Source of the DNA: a virus
Taxonomy: Duplodnaviria > Heunggongvirae > Uroviricota > Caudoviricetes
Length of the DNA stretch: 4,073 nucleotides
Reading direction: 5' to 3' (one strand)
Virus record (IMG/VR): IMGVR_UViG_2695420380_000014
Span: 1-4,073 of that record
Shown: piece after piece, positions 1 to 4,073 of the stretch
How positions within the stretch are numbered: the stretch's first letter is position 1
Layout of the letters: the number at the start of each line of letters is the position of its first letter
Made by a program: the position numbers and the translations under genes
The notes under the pieces: generated by a model
Seen by the model: only the letters and a program-made list of their open reading frames with translations
Databases searched by the model: none
What the model was told of the DNA's origin: nothing

Positions 1-40
1 ACTGCGAGTGATGAATAAATGTCCCAGGTTCTTCACTCAG

Positions 41-70
41 GCCTGCACAGTGTGCAGGCTTTCTTTTTTT
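41..70 (+). terminator. Rho-independent terminator candidate for a plus-strand gene ending at or before position 18
   Basis: Near-perfect palindrome gcctgcaca-g-tgtgcaggc (41-59) followed on the plus strand by the T-rich run tttcttttttt (60-70). An open frame ends at TAA 16-18 (last codons T-A-S-D-E), about 22 nt upstream. On the minus strand the hairpin is not followed by a U-tract. Confidence 0.55.
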
Positions 71-195
71 CAGATTTCACCTACAACAGTGGCTTCATAA
101 CTGGTAATCATGTTTTTCTCCTTAATTAAGGTTGAGCGAACCCCTGCCATTGCTGGCATATAAGAATGAAACCGGATATTTATTACGGAACTGTT

Positions 196-387
196 TTAAA
201 GACCTGCCGGGATTTCGTTATTATCATGGTGAATAACTTTATCGACCGGATAACAGTCACCGGGAATTTTCTGTTTCGCTGCGGCAGTCATACATTCTTT
301 CATTGAGCTGTATACGCCAGTAACCATGTCAACCGGTTCACCGGAAACAAGAAAAACCGTCAGAACGAGTGCAAATACTGTATTCAT
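196..387 (-). CDS. Small hypothetical protein (63 aa) with hydrophobic N-terminal segment (signal peptide or membrane anchor) and two Cys
   Basis: ATG at 385-387 preceded by AAGGA with 8-nt spacing. The start overlaps the stop of the upstream ORF in an ATGA arrangement. Translation MNTVFALVLTVFLVSGEPVD... has an uncharged hydrophobic N-terminus, then a polar domain with Cys in KECM and GDCY. Stop TAA at 196-198. The frame is also open back to ATG 441, but that start has a poorly spaced SD. Confidence 0.5.
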   Translation of the reverse strand: MNTVFALVLTVFLVSGEPVDMVTGVYSSMKECMTAAAKQKIPGDCYPVDKVIHHDNNEIPAGL

Positions 388-572
388 TGTGCACATCCTT
401 TTGGCATCAGACGTAAACGAGCCAGCATTGAAACAATGCATATTTTATTTAATGACTCCCGTTCGTGTTTTCTCTTGTTAATGGCATCTTCAGTAAATAC
501 CGTGTTACTGATAGTGACACCAATTTCAAAACAACCTTCAGACGTATTAACGTTTGGTAATAACGTCTCCAT
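384..572 (-). CDS. Small hypothetical protein (62 aa), hydrophilic and basic, first gene of a two-gene coupled pair
   Basis: ATG 570-572 preceded by GAGGA about 8 nt upstream. It lies 10 nt downstream of the stop of the Rha 3' fragment. Stop TGA 384-386 overlaps the next ATG. No recognisable domain by eye. Confidence 0.45.
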   Translation of the reverse strand: METLLPNVNTSEGCFEIGVTISNTVFTEDAINKRKHERESLNKICIVSMLARLRLMPKGCAQ

Positions 573-582
573 TATTGCGTCC

Positions 583-678
583 TCAACAATGAATTTTGAG
601 TAATTGTTCCACAGTCATATTTTTAATTGCGCCCCGGTTAACAAGAGTCCATCCCTGTTCTTCCAGATAAAACCGGAA
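583..678 (-). pseudogene. Orphaned 3' end (31 codons) of a Rha-family phage regulatory gene, cut off from its 5' part by the IS1/IS3 block
   Basis: Minus-strand translation FRFYLEEQGWTLVNRGAIKNMTVEQLLKIHC* is in frame with, and nearly identical to, the C-terminal region of the Rha-like CDS at 2333-2917. The frame is broken at the IS1 left end (679/680). Confidence 0.7.
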
Positions 679-679
679 A
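599..679. repeat. 81-bp direct repeat, copy 1 (abuts IS1 left end)
   Basis: Read base by base against 2382-2462: identical except position 660 (c) versus 2443 (t). The next base (680 and 2463) is g in both copies, so the repeat could be counted as 82 bp. Confidence 0.9.
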
Positions 680-702
680 GGTGATGCTGCCAACTTACTG
701 AT
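680..702. repeat. IS1 left terminal inverted repeat (IRL)
   Basis: GGTGATGCTGCCAACTTACTGAT at the left boundary of the element; imperfect inverted match to 1425-1447. Confidence 0.9.
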
Positions 703-734
703 TTAGTGTATGATGGTGTTTTTGAGGTGCTCCA

Positions 735-1010
735 GTGGCTTCTGTTTCTATCAGCTGTCCCTCCTGTTCAGCTACTGACGGGGTGGTGCGTAACGGCAAA
801 AGCACTGCCGGACATCAGCGCTATCTCTGCTCTCACTGCCGTAAAACATGGCAACTGCAGTTCACTTACACCGCTTCTCAACCCGGTACGCACCAGAAAA
901 TCATTGATATGGCCATGAATGGCGTTGGATGCCGGGCAACTGCACGCATTATGGGCGTTGGCCTCAACACGATTTTACGTCACTTAAAAAACTCAGGCCG
1001 CAGTCGGTAA
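735..1010 (+). CDS. insA: IS1 InsA (transposition repressor / N-terminal part of InsAB' transposase), 91 aa
   Basis: Translation [43 protein letters not shown]...LKNSGRSR matches IS1 InsA as I recall it, including the zinc-finger-like CxxC...CxxC and the HTH region. Confidence 0.95.
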
Positions 1011-1432
1011 CCTCGCGCATACAGCCGGGCAGTGACGTCATCGTCTGCGCGGAAATGGACGAACAGTGGGGCTATGTCGGGGCTAAATCGCGCCAGCGCT
1101 GGCTGTTTTACGCGTATGACAGTCTCCGGAAGACGGTTGTTGCGCACGTATTCGGTGAACGCACTATGGCGACGCTGGGGCGTCTTATGAGCCTGCTGTC
1201 ACCCTTTGACGTGGTGATATGGATGACGGATGGCTGGCCGCTGTATGAATCCCGCCTGAAGGGAAAGCTGCACGTAATCAGCAAGCGATATACGCAGCGA
1301 ATTGAGCGGCATAACCTGAATCTGAGGCAGCACCTGGCACGGCTGGGACGGAAGTCGCTGTCGTTCTCAAAATCGGTGGAGCTGCATGACAAAGTCATCG
1401 GGCATTATCTGAACATAAAACACTATCAATAA
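929..1432 (+). CDS. insB: IS1 InsB frame (167 aa as conventionally annotated; expressed as InsAB' fusion by -1 frameshifting)
   Basis: Translation [53 protein letters not shown]...HYLNIKHYQ matches IS1 InsB. It overlaps the insA 3' end in the -1 frame. Confidence 0.95.
986..992 (+). other. IS1 programmed -1 ribosomal frameshift motif (AAAAAAC)
   Basis: A6C heptamer inside ttaaaaaactc near the end of insA, at the position where IS1 produces the InsAB' transposase. Confidence 0.8.
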
Positions 1433-1447
1433 GTTGGAGTCATTACC
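1425..1447. repeat. IS1 right terminal inverted repeat (IRR)
   Basis: ...ATCAATAAGTTGGAGTCATTACC; its reverse complement GGTAATGACTCCAACTTATTGAT is an imperfect match to the IRL. Confidence 0.9.
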
Positions 1448-2336
1448 ATTTTGCACAGGAGTCGCTGAAAAATACGCGTTAATCGAACAATGGCGACAAC
1501 AATTTCCCATTGAAGCGATGTGTCAGGTATTTGGTGTATCCAGGAGCGGTTATTACAACTGGGTACAGCATGAACCCTCAGACAGAAAACAAAGTGATGA
1601 GCGGCTAAAACTGGAGATTAAGGTGGCACATATCCGCACTCGCGAAACATATGGAACCCGGCGGCTCCAGACGGAGCTGGCAGAGAATGGCATCATCGTT
1701 GGTCGTGACCGACTGGCACGTCTTCGTAAGGAGCTAAGGCTACGCTGTAAGCAGAAACGCAAGTTCAGAGCGACTACGAACTCGAACCACAATCTGCCAG
1801 TTGCGCCAAATCTGCTGAACCAGACGTTCGCTCCTACAGCACCAAATCAGGTCTGGGTGGCGGACCTGACGTATGTTGCCACACAGGAGGGATGGTTGTA
1901 CCTCGCTGGCATCAAAGATGTTTATACGTGCGAAATTGTCGGCTACGCCATGGGAGAGCGCATGACAAAAGAGCTGACAGGTAAAGCCCTGTTTATGGCG
2001 CTCAGGAGCCAGCGCCCACCTGCCGGGCTAATCCACCACTCTGATCGAGGTTCACAGTACTGCGCATACGATTACCGGGTCATACAGGAGCAGTCTGGTC
2101 TGAAAACATCAATGTCGCGTAAAGGTAACTGTTACGACAACGCTCCGATGGAAAGCTTCTGGGGAACGCTGAAAAATGAGAGCCTGAGCCACTATCGTTT
2201 TAATAACCGGGATGAAGCCATCTCAGTAATACGGGAATACATTGAGATTTTCTACAATCGTCAGCGTCGTCACTCTCGTCTGGGGAATATCTCCCCGGCA
2301 GCCTTCAGGGAAAAATATCATCAGATGGCTGCTTAA
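1448..2336 (+). pseudogene. IS3-family transposase OrfB (DDE integrase catalytic domain), 5'-truncated, lacking orfA and the frameshift window
   Basis: Translation from 1448 (...AEKYALIEQWRQQFPIEAMCQVFGVSRSGYYNW...) parallels the N-terminus of IS3 InsF as recalled ([32 protein letters not shown]). DDE motifs are visible: VWVADLTY, HSDRGSQY, ESFWGTLKNE. The only in-window start for this frame is a TTG at 1434, which lies inside the IS1 IRR. Stop TAA at 2334-2336. Confidence 0.85.
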
Positions 2337-2379
2337 AAAAAGAACAAATGGTAGTGTCCGCTATTGCCAGTACACCTCA
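1448..2379 (+). mobile_element. IS3-family insertion sequence remnant (right part only: orfB plus right end); left end and orfA replaced by IS1
   Basis: Begins immediately after the IS1 IRR. Encodes an rve-type DDE transposase frame. After the orfB stop there are about 40 bp ending in ...CCTCA (2375-2379), consistent with the CA-3' terminus typical of IS3-family ends. The exact right boundary (2377-2381) is uncertain. No IS3-type left end or orfA is present in the window. Confidence 0.8.
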
Positions 2380-2917
2380 AAAGTAATTGTTCCACAGTCA
2401 TATTTTTAATTGCGCCCCGGTTAACAAGAGTCCATCCCTGTTTTTCCAGATAAAACCGGAAAGTCTCCAGGGTACAGACCAGTGCGCCATCAGGAACGGT
2501 TTCGGTGAATTCGACATTGCCGAATTTGTCGAAGTGAACAACCAGAGTGCGACCATCACCCGGAATCATCTTGTCAGCAGGTGGGGTGTTATTCTGGCGC
2601 AGTTCGGCCTCCATGCGGTCGAACTCAGCAATGTAGGCTTCTTTGAATGCAGCGGCTTTTTTGCCAGTGAAGCCCATAACCAGGAAAACGAAGCCGTTTT
2701 TGGTGATTTGGTACATTGGGAGTTTGCGCCCGATTGAGTCGGTGTATTCGCTCGCTTCAAAATTGAGGGCAGTAAATTTATCTGAGCATTCAATATTTGC
2801 GATGGCACGTAACACATTGTCGTGTCGTTTGTGGAAGAACTCTGCAACCGCAACAGACGTAGTGACAGCGCGACCGTTTTCTACGGTTACACAAGGGTGA
2901 GAAAGGGTAGTAGCCAT
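2333..2917 (-). CDS. Rha-family phage regulatory protein (Phage_pRha-like N-terminal domain), with its native C-terminal 4 residues replaced by a 15-residue tail read from the IS3-family end
   Basis: ATG 2915-2917 preceded by GGAGG with about 8-nt spacing. The N-terminal region ...CVTVENGRAVTTSVAVAEFFHKRHDNVLRAIANI... carries the FxKRHDNVLR motif I associate with Rha-family regulators. The frame runs into the IS end (...MTVEQLL|LRCTGNSGHYHLFFF*). The frame is also open upstream to ATG 3211 (see findings). Confidence 0.75.
   Translation of the reverse strand: MATTLSHPCVTVENGRAVTTSVAVAEFFHKRHDNVLRAIANIECSDKFTALNFEASEYTDSIGRKLPMYQITKNGFVFLVMGFTGKKAAAFKEAYIAEFDRMEAELRQNNTPPADKMIPGDGRTLVVHFDKFGNVEFTETVPDGALVCTLETFRFYLEKQGWTLVNRGAIKNMTVEQLLLRCTGNSGHYHLFFF
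2382..2462. repeat. 81-bp direct repeat, copy 2 (abuts IS3-family right end; part of the Rha-like CDS)
   Basis: Identical to 599-679 except one base (2443 t versus 660 c). Confidence 0.9.
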
Positions 2918-3081
2918 GATGGCAGCCTCCGCGATGAATTTGATTAACTCACCACCGGAGGTAGCAATCTCATGGGTGGTGAGACGTACAGGGTTGCTAC
3001 AACCGGTCATCACGGAACCCGGCCAGTCTTGCGACTGCCCCGCACGCCCCACCATAATTTGAATGTGGCTGTGCATTACGC

Positions 3082-3106
3082 ATAAAAAAACCGCCTGAGC
3101 GCGGTT
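3082..3106 (-). terminator. Intrinsic terminator-like hairpin on the minus strand, upstream of the Rha start
   Basis: Minus-strand sequence aaccgc-gctcag-gcggtt (6-bp stem, 6-nt loop) followed by seven T (plus-strand A-run 3084-3090). It lies inside the stop-free region between ATG 3211 and ATG 2917. Confidence 0.5.
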
Positions 3107-3275
3107 ATGCGCCGTGAATGACTTCGGGGTAGCAATCCCGGCACCCGTTTTATGAGGTGCAGGTGCACTATAATTCCACCCGTTCTGGTTTTCAATAGCT
3201 ACATTCAACATTTTCTCTTTCCTTTCATCACCGAAGTGAACTTTGTTGATGCGGTGCCTGGTGCCTCCAGGTGAC

Positions 3276-3296
3276 GTTAACCAGTTAACAATTAAC
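3276..3296. promoter_or_regulatory. Cluster of three (G)TTAAC motifs; candidate operator or protein-binding site in the divergent intergenic region
   Basis: GTTAAC-ca-GTTAAC-aa-TTAAC, with repeats starting at 3276, 3284 and 3292. Each GTTAAC is self-palindromic. It lies between the minus-strand Rha region and the plus-strand small gene. Confidence 0.3.
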
Positions 3297-3612
3297 GCCG
3301 GAATAAGGGATTTTCCTTACTGTTTTAACTGTTCCGCGTGCGCTGAGCCGCATTCACCGCATCACAAAATTCACTTTAAAAAGGGCGGACATCAGCCAGC
3401 AATTAAACCGATGCCGCCAACTGGTACTTCACACAGCAATGTCGTTATTTACAACCGGAGGCGCACTCCCACCATTTAAATTTAACAGACAAGACCGACT
3501 CTTTATGGATACCGGAAATGCGCCTTCGTGTTGTGCCCGGTTTTATTTCACCACCTCCGGGCTTTGGTGGTATCTTTACTGAAGTTCTCACACAACCAGT
3601 AAGGAAATGAAT

Positions 3613-3903
3613 ATGCCAACGTATCTCGCCAGAGTAGAACTATATAATGCTGAGCCAGAGGATTACGAAGGGCTTCATAAATATATGCTCTCACTAGGAT
3701 TCAGGAGAACGATCCCCCATGGAGATGGTTCGTATAATCAACTCCCGGACGGAACTTATGTTTCCGAAAAGGGCGGTGATATTTATCAAATTCGCAGCCA
3801 GATATCTGACTATGCAGACCGACTATCCAGGTATCGCGCGTCTGTTTTTGTTTGCGAATTCAGTCAATGCGCATGGTATTTATACCCCGCCAAGACCCGG
3901 TGA
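3613..3903 (+). CDS. Small hypothetical protein (96 aa), tentatively GhoS/DUF2622-like
   Basis: AAGGA at 3601-3605, 7 nt before ATG 3613 (the ATG at 3607 is too close to the SD). Translation MPTYLARVELYNAEPEDYEGLHKYMLSLGFRRTIPHGDGSYNQLPDGTYV... shows by eye a residue pattern (TY...Y....L...M....F...I....G...QL) resembling E. coli GhoS as I recall it. This is a memory-based resemblance only. Stop TGA 3901-3903. Confidence 0.5.
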   Translation: MPTYLARVELYNAEPEDYEGLHKYMLSLGFRRTIPHGDGSYNQLPDGTYVSEKGGDIYQIRSQISDYADRLSRYRASVFVCEFSQCAWYLYPAKTR

Positions 3904-4073
3904 ATATCCTGTACGGCCTTCTGCTTTGTAGAAGGCTTCTTCGCTATCATAATCGCCAGATTCCAGCGCTTCTTTAGCCAGCCAGATGCGTGCCCCAGTG
4001 CCTGCATTTGGCTCCAGTTGCTGGAGGCGTTTTGCATCTTCTAAATAGCTGCGCTTAATACCGCTACACTTTT
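3880..4073 (-). CDS. 3' end (64 codons) of a hypothetical protein gene that extends beyond the right edge of the window
   Basis: The minus-strand frame is open from the window edge to TAA at 3880-3882: ...KCSGIKRSYLEDAKRLQQLEPNAGTGARIWLAKEALESGDYDSEEAFYKAEGRTGYSPGLGGV*. It overlaps the 3' end of the plus-strand small gene by 24 bp. No family recognised. Confidence 0.45.
   Translation of the reverse strand, partial: KCSGIKRSYLEDAKRLQQLEPNAGTGARIWLAKEALESGDYDSEEAFYKAEGRTGYSPGLGGV

What the first reader, a model, noticed from the sequence alone, without database searches (positions are those of the whole stretch)
2333..2917. Rha-family regulator gene is split in two: a 5' part with an IS-derived tail and a separate 31-codon 3' fragment
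The 2333-2917 frame encodes the Rha-like N-terminal domain but ends in 15 residues read from the IS3-family terminus. The authentic C-terminus (...TVEQLLKIHC*) survives as the fragment at 583-678, upstream of the small-gene pair. The two repeat copies also differ by one nonsynonymous base (GAA versus AAA, Glu versus Lys), which suggests the copies diverged after duplication or came from two alleles.
Basis: partly seen in the sequence, partly recalled or inferred. Interest (0 to 1): 0.4.

Follow-up and report, generated by a model that had tools for sequence, protein, structure and literature searches.

The report
Assembly chimera of three prophage genes
The "split" Rha regulator gene is almost certainly a false join in a draft Shigella sonnei assembly, which stitched together pieces of three near-identical prophage gene copies that lie far apart in finished genomes, so it is not a new biological structure.

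Summary
A 194-codon ORF (2333-2917, minus strand) has a Phage_pRha domain and a 15-residue tail read from an IS600 end. A 31-codon rha 3' fragment lies at 583-678. An 82-bp direct repeat (599-680 / 2382-2463) differs at one base.

The arrangement is very probably not real. The window is a whole 4,073-bp contig of a draft Shigella sonnei assembly. The tool's copy of that record has an N at position 1448, exactly where IS1 meets the interior of IS600.

Finished S. sonnei genomes hold three rha paralogues at separate loci:
- Locus 1 has an intact gene, 100% identical to window 2382-4073, ending ...TVEQLLKIHC* just before dicB.
- Locus 2 has a copy cut by IS600. It supplies the window's IS600 junction and tail.
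- Locus 3 has a copy split by a simple IS1 insertion with a 9-bp target duplication. It supplies the window's IS1 junction and the GAA codon.

The window's 292-aa product occurs on only three draft scaffolds of at most 5.6 kb, and those sister scaffolds also carry Ns and disagree beyond the shared junction. The authentic products occur on about 100-120 contigs each, including complete chromosomes. Every switch between loci falls in a 38-91 nt identical stretch. The underlying biology is ordinary IS decay of prophage genes.

The parts
70..159 (-). Remnant of a conserved 91-aa ORF (MITSYEATVV...GEI*). Relative to all relatives, 234 nt (78 codons, in frame) are missing at the window 82/83 junction.
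   Evidence: Window 1-82 and 82-680 match L013 7938-8019 and 8253-8851, and the stretch between is absent from the window.
196..441 (-). DUF1482 (ydfD-like) gene downstream of dicB. Gene callers start it at 396, giving 66 aa.
   Evidence: Pfam DUF1482, E 1.5e-22. Gene tables.
384..572 (-). dicB (62 aa). This allele is a mosaic: locus-3 bases at 454, 455, 501 and 503 sit in a locus-1 background. It occurs on only 4 draft contigs.
   Evidence: Pfam DicB, E 2.5e-38. Allele table. Exact look-ups.
583..678 (-). The 31-codon rha 3' fragment (FRFYLEEQGW...TVEQLLKIHC*). The same protein fragment is the real remnant of the IS1-split rha_C at locus 3 of finished genomes. Here its IS1-proximal part carries the locus-3 base and its distal part carries locus-1 bases.
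599..680 (.). Repeat copy 1 (R). The C at 660 (GAA, Glu) is the locus-3 allele. Positions 607 and 610 carry locus-1 alleles.
680..1447 (+). Complete IS1 (768 bp; InsA and InsB domains). No 9-bp target duplication flanks it in the window. Its junction with R is an exact 50-mer match to locus 3 of S. sonnei 53G, where a 9-bp duplication (TTTCCGGTT) is present.
1448..1448 (.). Scaffold join. This base is N in the tool's copy of the source record (CXCT01000263.1). It is the first base after the IS1 end.
   Evidence: Sister scaffolds have Ns at comparable joins.
1448..2379 (+). IS600 (IS3 family), positions 333-1264 only. The left 332 bp and any target duplication are missing. The right inverted repeat ends at 2379.
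   Evidence: 99.4% over 932 bp. Pfam rve and HTH_21.
2380..2381 (.). Two bases (AA) between the IS600 end and R. They match rha genes that end ...LLSLK* and the locus-2 junction. They do not match the KIHC-type gene.
2382..2463 (.). Repeat copy 2 (R). It is identical to R in locus 1 and in locus 2.
2333..2917 (-). The 194-codon ORF: 179 native Rha residues (identical to the intact locus-1 gene) plus 15 residues and a stop from IS600. An SD sequence (GGAGG) lies upstream of the ATG at 2917.
2972..3059 (-). C4-type antisense RNA gene immediately upstream of rha.
   Evidence: Rfam RF01695, 79 bits against a gathering score of 45, E 5e-15.
3084..3160 (-). isrK-type RNA. It overlaps a weak match to the C4 a1/b1 target family.
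   Evidence: Rfam RF01394, 64.8 bits against 50. RF03163 scores 20.6 bits, below threshold.

Best explanation
The window is a repeat-induced chimera made by a short-read assembly and scaffolding pipeline. It is not a gene that an IS split in the cell.

Shigella sonnei carries three paralogous rha genes in three prophage remnants. They share an identical or near-identical 3' segment (R, about 82-92 nt).
- Locus 1 (next to ttcA): rha_B is intact. It is 183 aa from the ATG at 2917, ends ...KIHC*, and is followed by dicB and a DUF1482 gene.
- Locus 2 (next to mod/gal): rha_A is cut 9 nt before its ...SLK* stop by the right end of IS600. Its 5' end is also truncated, at an IS600 fragment.
- Locus 3 (Qin-like, next to ynfE): rha_C is split by a simple IS1 insertion with a 9-bp target duplication. 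This leaves IS1-R'(Glu)-KIHC*-dicB'.

The assembler could not span R. The path from dicB of locus 1 entered R and left into the IS1 of locus 3. The path from the rha_B body of locus 1 entered R and left into the IS600 of locus 2. Read extension ran outward through the multi-copy IS sequences. On one side it stopped exactly at the outer end of IS1. The scaffolder then joined the two dead ends with a single N at window 1448.

Shown: the three loci, the exact junction matches, the N, and how often each product occurs. Inferred: the steps inside the pipeline and k = 35.

The real gene most likely acts as a Rha-type phage regulator or antirepressor. It probably sits under a C4 antisense RNA, as ant does in the P1 immI region. 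That functional reading is inferred from family membership and gene order only.
For: 1. The window equals the whole contig CXCT01000263.1 of GCA_001249045.1. The tool's copy has N at window 1448, the first base after the IS1 terminus.

2. In finished genomes L013 (CP032523.1) and L016 (UGZB01000001.1), window 2382-4073 matches at 100% and window 82-680 at 99.2%. The two matches overlap in a single R, with no IS between them. The gene there is intact and ends KIHC*.

3. The window's R-IS600 junction 90-mer is exact in locus 2 of UGZB01000001.1 (L023). It is absent from locus 1 of the same record (L016). The two loci are about 1.15 Mb apart and inverted.

4. The window's IS1-R junction 50-mer, including the GAA base, is exact in locus 3 of S. 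sonnei 53G (L035). There IS1 has a 9-bp target duplication, TTTCCGGTT. L037 has locus 3 uninterrupted, reading ...FYLEEQGW...KIHC*.

5. Exact-protein counts:
- intact 281-aa product: 122 contigs, longest 5,039,992 bp;
- rha_A with IS600 tail (160 aa): 99 contigs, longest 5,039,992 bp;
- the window's 292-aa product: 3 contigs, longest 5,635 bp;
- the reciprocal 149-aa product: 9 contigs in the cluster table (the look-up read 10), longest 20,190 bp.
All contigs carrying the last two products come from FT** and CX** WGS projects.

6. Sister scaffolds share the rha_B-R-IS600 sequence but disagree beyond it. They carry Ns at the joins. In L029, L032 and L033 the N sits at the last base of R.

7. 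The left flank is a locus 3 / 1 / 3 / 1 mosaic. Every switch falls in an identical stretch of 38-91 nt. None falls between variant sites less than 35 nt apart. Contigs L010 and L011 begin 34 nt inside R, which suggests k = 35.

8. The window's DicB allele exists on only 4 draft contigs of at most 4,073 bp.

9. A published Velvet + SSPACE + GapFiller pipeline, applied to 299 S. sonnei assemblies, states that these greedy tools can make false joins and that joins are written as N (PMC5320598).
Against: - I could not see the reads, so a real recombinant in this isolate is not excluded.
- One sister contig (L028, 8 kb) shows the reciprocal combination (rha_A-R-KIHC-dicB) without any N.
- The swapped arrangement appears in at least two backgrounds that differ by SNPs. 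That could equally mean recurrent recombination.
- That the source assembly was made with the pipeline of PMC5320598 is an inference. So is k = 35.
- The window has A where the tool's copy of the record has N. I assume the window's base is a substitute for the N.
Confidence: 0.86

Rival explanations
1. The arrangement is real in this isolate. Homologous recombination or gene conversion among the three rha paralogues, through the shared R segment, put the IS600 junction of locus 2 on the rha_B body and the IS1 junction of locus 3 on the locus-1 dicB flank. Only the IS1/IS600 link (the N) would be unresolved.
For: - Loci 1 and 2 are inverted relative to each other in UGZB01000001.1. A crossover in R would therefore give both swapped products. 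Both are seen in drafts: the 292-aa and the 149-aa product.
- L028 shows the 149-aa arrangement in 8 kb without any N.
- Four drafts share the mosaic dicB allele, which could mark a clade.
Against: - Neither swapped product occurs on any contig longer than 20 kb. The unswapped products occur on complete chromosomes.
- Scaffolds place the dicB flank and the rha_B flank collinear and within a few kb. That fits an intact locus 1. It does not fit a 1.15-Mb inversion.
- L006 holds three mutually incompatible rha-R combinations in one scaffold, including a B/A/B mosaic body.
- Switch points respect a threshold of about 35 nt.
- Nearly every such scaffold has Ns at the joins.
Confidence: 0.1
2. One reading: one Rha gene was interrupted near its 3' end by a composite IS1/IS600 insertion. 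The event duplicated 82 bp of the target, and the copies then diverged by one base.
For: The window read at face value. The reconstructed protein is identical to a real intact protein.
Against: - Target duplications are 3 bp for IS600 (recalled) and 9 bp for IS1 (seen in L035), not 82 bp.
- In the window, IS1 and IS600 each lack a target duplication, and IS600 lacks its left 332 bp.
- Bases 2380-2381 (AA) do not match the KIHC-type target. They do match the SLK-type gene of locus 2.
- The GAA base is the native allele of rha_C, not a later mutation. No other homologue has Glu at this site: of 149 homologues with the motif, 132 have Lys and 17 Gln.
- The IS1/IS600 junction is an N.
Confidence: 0.03

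Closest known systems
Rha family phage regulatory proteins (Pfam PF09669; prototype rha of phage phi80, recalled from memory)
   Same: The ORF has a full-length Phage_pRha domain well above threshold. It is collinear with hundreds of annotated Rha proteins of E. coli, Shigella and Salmonella prophages up to the conserved ...NMTVEQLL.
   Different: Nothing differs in the real gene, which is an ordinary member. Only the 15-residue IS600-encoded tail is unusual, and it belongs to a different paralogue.
IS-mediated pseudogene formation in Shigella (IS1 and IS600 insertions)
   Same: Finished S. sonnei genomes really do have rha_C split by IS1 with a 9-bp target duplication, and rha_A truncated by IS600.
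   Different: In the window these junctions are attached to the wrong paralogue, and the two ISs are joined to each other through an N.
Repeat-induced false joins in Velvet/SSPACE/GapFiller draft assemblies (PMC5320598)
   Same: There is a single N at the join. One piece ends exactly at an IS terminus. Switches occur only in identical stretches longer than the inferred k-mer. Sister scaffolds are inconsistent.
   Different: I have no direct proof that this pipeline made the contig, and the reads were not available.
P1/P7 immI module (c4 antisense RNA upstream of icd/ant) and the Gifsy-1 isrK region (recalled from memory)
   Same: C4 and isrK RNA genes, both above Rfam gathering scores, lie directly upstream of rha on the same strand. 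A C4 loop (GTAGCAA) is complementary to TTGCTAC both upstream and downstream of C4.
   Different: The downstream gene is a Rha-domain protein followed by dicB, not icd/ant. Regulation was not tested.
dicBF operon of the Qin prophage (E. coli K-12)
   Same: dicB and the DUF1482 (ydfD-like) gene follow rha. A weak DicF-like match lies upstream at 3383-3433.
   Different: The DicF match is below the gathering score (28.6 against 48). An isrK-C4-rha module sits between the DicF-like site and dicB.

Membership tests
Rha family (Pfam Phage_pRha) | Phage_pRha domain above the curated cut-off | tested here: met
   109.7 bits against a cut-off of 29.9, E 1.1e-31, profile positions 1-90 of 91. The intact locus-1 protein gives the same result.
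Rha family (Pfam Phage_pRha) | Full-length collinearity with intact annotated members, including the C-terminal region | tested here: met
   The 120 best homologues cover 90-92% of the 194-aa query, that is residues 1 to about 179, and none covers the tail. They end 3-4 residues after TVEQLL.
Gene disrupted by a simple IS insertion | The two flanks are contiguous in the uninterrupted allele, apart from a target duplication of the size typical for that IS | tested here: not met
   The duplication is 82 bp, not 3 or 9 bp. The IS600 flank AA does not fit the KIHC-type allele. Neither IS has a target duplication in the window. Locus 3 of strain 53G does meet this test for IS1.
IS600 (IS3 family) | High identity to IS600, with its terminal inverted repeat and transposase domains | tested here: met
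   99.4% over positions 333-1264. The right end is ...CCAGTACACCTCA. Pfam rve and HTH_21 match.
IS600 (IS3 family) | Complete element with both ends and a target duplication | tested here: not met
   The left 332 bp are absent. The element stops at the N-marked join.
IS1 | A 768-bp element with InsA and InsB | tested here: met
   Window 680-1447. Pfam Zn_ribbon_InsA, HTH_Tnp_IS1 and DDE_Tnp_IS1 match. It is 100% identical to the IS1 at locus 3 of 53G.
Assembly or scaffolding false join | An unresolved base or gap at the join | tested here: met
   N at window 1448 in the tool's copy of the record. Sister scaffolds have Ns at the analogous joins.
Assembly or scaffolding false join | The component junctions map to separate loci in finished genomes, and the joined arrangement is absent from finished genomes | tested here: met
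   Neither junction is found in 5,426 complete E. coli genomes.
Assembly or scaffolding false join | Read pairs or long reads of the same isolate contradict the join | not testable with these tools
C4 antisense RNA (RF01695) | Covariance-model score above the gathering threshold | tested here: met
   79 bits against 45 at 2972-3059, minus strand.

The most novel reading that the evidence does not exclude
This S. sonnei isolate, and a few relatives, might truly carry a three-way recombinant among paralogous prophage rha modules. Exchange through a 38-91 nt shared segment would have moved IS junctions between loci up to 1.15 Mb apart. The result would be a near-complete Rha regulator with an IS600-encoded 15-residue tail, uncoupled from dicB.
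Probability: 0.1. Interest if true: 0.25.

Novelty: not a real feature. Interest (0 to 1): 0.08.

Why it matters
The value is mainly cautionary. The contig is a public record, and its 292-aa chimeric product has its own RefSeq protein accession (WP_052993438.1). Pseudogene, IS-insertion and pan-genome counts for Shigella that use such scaffolds will therefore include junctions that do not exist.

The finding also gives a compact recipe for spotting this class of artefact:
- a direct repeat far longer than any target duplication;
- IS copies without target duplications;
- an N at an IS terminus;
- allele mosaics whose switch points respect the k-mer length.

The real biology underneath is already well known in kind: three paralogous isrK-C4-rha modules in S. 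sonnei, one intact and two inactivated by IS600 or IS1.

Tried and rejected
1. Simple IS insertion with a target duplication. Rejected: the repeat is 82 bp, neither IS has a target duplication, and IS600 is truncated.

2. A real IS1-mediated fusion of a Rac-like and a Qin-like prophage. This was my working model after comparing complete E. coli genomes. The left flank is 97.8% identical to rha-dicB prophages, and the right flank 92% to rha-ydaE prophages. I dropped it when finished S. sonnei genomes showed both flanks contiguous at 99-100% identity.

3. I first thought KIHC was not the authentic end of the 5' gene, because of the AA at 2380-2381. The dinucleotide is real, but it belongs to locus 2. 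The rha_B body itself does end in KIHC.

4. I first read the base at 660 as a private mutation or a sequencing error. It is the native allele of rha_C.

5. A scan of one genome per species for the IS600-rha junction found nothing. Neither junction occurs in 5,426 complete E. coli genomes.

6. Comparing the rha_A and rha_B bodies with E. coli types did not discriminate between them.

Full report
**1. The observation**

- ORF 2333-2917 (minus strand) encodes 194 aa. It has a full Phage_pRha domain at residues 19-103 (E 1.1e-31).
- Its last 15 residues (LRCTGNSGHYHLFFF) and its stop are read from the right end of IS600. IS600 positions 333-1264 occupy window 1448-2379 at 99.4% identity.
- A complete 768-bp IS1 lies at 680-1447.
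- An 82-nt direct repeat, called R here (599-680 and 2382-2463), flanks the two ISs. It is 81/82 identical.
- The left copy continues into ...TVEQLLKIHC* at 583-678, 10 nt upstream of dicB (384-572). A DUF1482 gene follows.
- The single mismatch gives GAA (Glu) in the left copy and AAA (Lys) in the right copy.

The 194-aa ORF holds 179 of 183 native residues. The '3' fragment' is therefore mostly a duplicate of what the long ORF already has, not a missing half.

**2. Why this is not a simple IS insertion**

- IS600 makes a 3-bp target duplication (recalled) and IS1 a 9-bp one (seen in L035). Here the duplication is 82 bp.
- Neither IS has a target duplication in the window.
- IS600 lacks its left 332 bp.
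- The two bases between the IS600 end and R (2380-2381, AA) do not fit a gene ending CTC-AAA-ATT-CAT-TGT (KIHC). They do fit genes ending CTT-TCT-TTA-AAA (SLK).

**3. Source of the window**

An exact-protein look-up showed that the window is the whole 4,073-bp contig CXCT01000263.1 of draft assembly GCA_001249045.1. The products are named Shigella sonnei by their sources.

The tool's copy of the record is identical to the window except for one base. It has N at window 1448, the first base after the IS1 terminus. So the IS1/IS600 junction is a scaffold join, not determined sequence.

**4. The three real loci**

Finished, N-free S. sonnei genomes show three rha paralogues.

*Locus 1*, beside ttcA (L013 = CP032523.1; L016 = UGZB01000001.1):
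- Window 2382-4073 matches at 100%, and window 82-680 at 99.2%.
- The two matches overlap in a single R with no IS between them.
- The gene is intact. It is 183 aa from the ATG that corresponds to 2917 (281 aa as annotated) and ends KIHC* before dicB.

*Locus 2*, beside mod/gal (L022 = strain 53G; L023 = UGZB01000001.1):
- A fragment of IS600 (positions 1-290) abuts a 5'-truncated rha_A.
- rha_A runs through R, then TT, then the IS600 right end. This gives a 160-aa product with the same 15-residue tail.
- The window's junction 90-mer is exact here and absent from locus 1 of the same record.
- The two loci are about 1.15 Mb apart and inverted.
- An intact SLK-ended relative of rha_A exists in S. 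sonnei (P0008).

*Locus 3*, Qin-like, beside ynfE (L035 = 53G):
- rha_C is split by IS1 with a 9-bp target duplication (TTTCCGGTT).
- This leaves IS1-R'-KIHC*-dicB'-DUF1482'-ydfE.
- The window's IS1-R 50-mer, including the GAA base, is exact here.
- In CP180280.1 (L037), locus 3 is uninterrupted and reads ...FYLEEQGW...KIHC*.

**5. The window is a mosaic of the three loci**

| Window positions | Source |
|---|---|
| 1449-2381 | locus 2 |
| 2382-4073 | locus 1 |
| IS1 and R down to at least 660 | locus 3 |
| 607-610 and 542-576 | locus-1 alleles |
| 454-503 | locus-3 alleles |
| 82-414 | locus-1 alleles |

Every switch lies in an identical stretch of 38-91 nt. No switch falls between variant sites less than 35 nt apart. 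Sister contigs L010 and L011 begin 34 nt inside R, as expected for a de Bruijn graph with k = 35 (inference).

**6. Frequencies**

| Product | Contigs | Longest contig |
|---|---|---|
| Intact 281-aa rha_B | 122 | 5,039,992 bp |
| 160-aa rha_A + IS600 tail | 99 | 5,039,992 bp |
| Window's 292-aa product | 3 | 5,635 bp |
| Reciprocal 149-aa product | 9 in the cluster table (10 read) | 20,190 bp |

The window's DicB allele occurs on only 4 draft contigs of at most 4,073 bp.

The sister scaffolds share the rha_B-R-IS600 sequence but disagree beyond it, and they carry Ns at the joins. In three of them (L029, L032, L033) the N sits at the last base of R. L006 contains three incompatible rha-R combinations, including a B/A/B mosaic body.

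A published pipeline (Velvet, SSPACE, GapFiller) was applied to 299 S. sonnei assemblies. Its authors state that these greedy tools can make false joins and that joins are written as N (PMC5320598). That this pipeline made the contig is my inference.

**7. Best explanation (confidence about 0.86)**

The assembler could not span R.
- The path from dicB of locus 1 left R into the IS1 of locus 3.
- The path from the rha_B body left R into the IS600 of locus 2.
- Extension ran through the multi-copy ISs. On one side it stopped exactly at the outer end of IS1.
- The scaffolder joined the two dead ends with one N.

The dicB flank and the rha_B flank end up collinear and close together. That is what read pairs across an intact locus 1 would produce.

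**8. Rivals**

- A real recombinant among the paralogues (about 0.10). One N-free sister contig (L028) and the fact that both reciprocal products are seen keep this open. Against it: neither product occurs on a long contig, the scaffolds are collinear, and the switch points follow the k-mer pattern.
The points in section 2, the native origin of GAA and the N all contradict it.

**9. What the real gene is**

It is an ordinary Rha-family protein.
- Homologues are collinear up to the conserved NMTVEQLL. They then end in 3-4 variable residues: SIK 51, KIHC 18, KFTR 13, RIK 12, SLK 7. Even the genuine IS600 tail at locus 2 therefore removes no conserved residue.
- Upstream on the same strand lie a C4 antisense RNA (79 bits) and an isrK RNA (64.8 bits).
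- The C4 loop sequence GTAGCAA is complementary to TTGCTAC both upstream and downstream of C4.
- This resembles the P1 immI arrangement (recalled). It suggests antisense control of rha and dicB, which was not tested.

**10. Verdict**

The split gene itself is very probably an assembly artefact. Interest is low.

Noticed in passing
window 2918-3211 (minus strand): The frame of rha stays open for 98 codons upstream of the SD-preceded ATG at 2917. Annotators call the long form (281-292 aa), and Pfam 'Ash protein family' (PF10554) matches residues 14-104 of it. That stretch coincides with the isrK and C4 RNA genes (2972-3160). Either the RNAs and a protein are co-encoded, or the extension, and perhaps the Pfam family, is a translation of conserved RNA genes. 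Some homologues are annotated at 184-185 aa without it.
   Followed up: partly
window 2956-2967, about 2926-2931, and 3129-3135 (minus strand): The C4 loop GTAGCAA is complementary to TTGCTAC both in the isrK region (3129-3135) and just 3' of C4 (2961-2967). The latter overlaps CCTCCG (2956-2961), which is complementary to the CGGAGG Shine-Dalgarno region of rha. This suggests a leader switch like the P1 a/b target system. It was not tested.
   Followed up: partly
window 82/83: Relative to all related loci (L006, L007, L009, L011, L012, L013, L016), 234 nt are missing. This removes 78 codons in frame from a conserved 91-aa ORF with no Pfam match (MITSYEATVV...LKGEI*). It could be a real deletion or another assembly fault. 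In L010 this region is a run of N.
   Followed up: partly
window 3383-3433 and 3242-3371 (minus strand): Sub-threshold Rfam matches to DicF (28.6 bits against 48, E 0.0024) and STnc100 (33.7 against 47) lie upstream of the isrK-C4-rha-dicB string. This fits a dicBF-type operon with an inserted C4-rha module.
   Followed up: no
window 454-503 (dicB): Four clustered bases (454, 455, 501, 503) carry locus-3 alleles in a locus-1 background. They give a DicB protein seen on only 4 draft contigs from CX** WGS projects. This is either a consensus chimera or a gene-conversion tract shared by a clade.
   Followed up: partly
L030 (FTTO01000248.1) about 1690-1790: In another S. sonnei draft, rha_B is cut inside R (product ends ...FYLEKL*). 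The adjoining sequence (TGGCCAGTTTTTGTTTACCACTTCA) resembles, from memory, an IS911-type end. An N follows about 100 nt later. It may be a real strain-specific insertion. The adjoining element was not checked with a tool.
   Followed up: no
L007 3489/3490 compared with L023 about 9710-9810: The draft L007 joins the IS600 right end directly to IS600 position 98. The finished genome has IS600-GAC-IS600(1-290) at that place. This is one more sign that IS-rich stretches of these scaffolds are unreliable.
   Followed up: partly
window 3607-3903 (plus strand): A conserved 96-98-aa ORF (MPTYLARVELYNAEPEDYEGLHKYM...) has no Pfam match. It is listed in 670 blocks of the contig collection, including complete E. 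coli and Shigella chromosomes. It always lies between the rha or kilR/ydaE region and DUF1391. Its function is unknown.
   Followed up: no
window 1448: The window shows A where the tool's copy of the public record has N. The A happens to equal IS600 position 333, so the window reads as seamless sequence although the record does not.
   Followed up: yes
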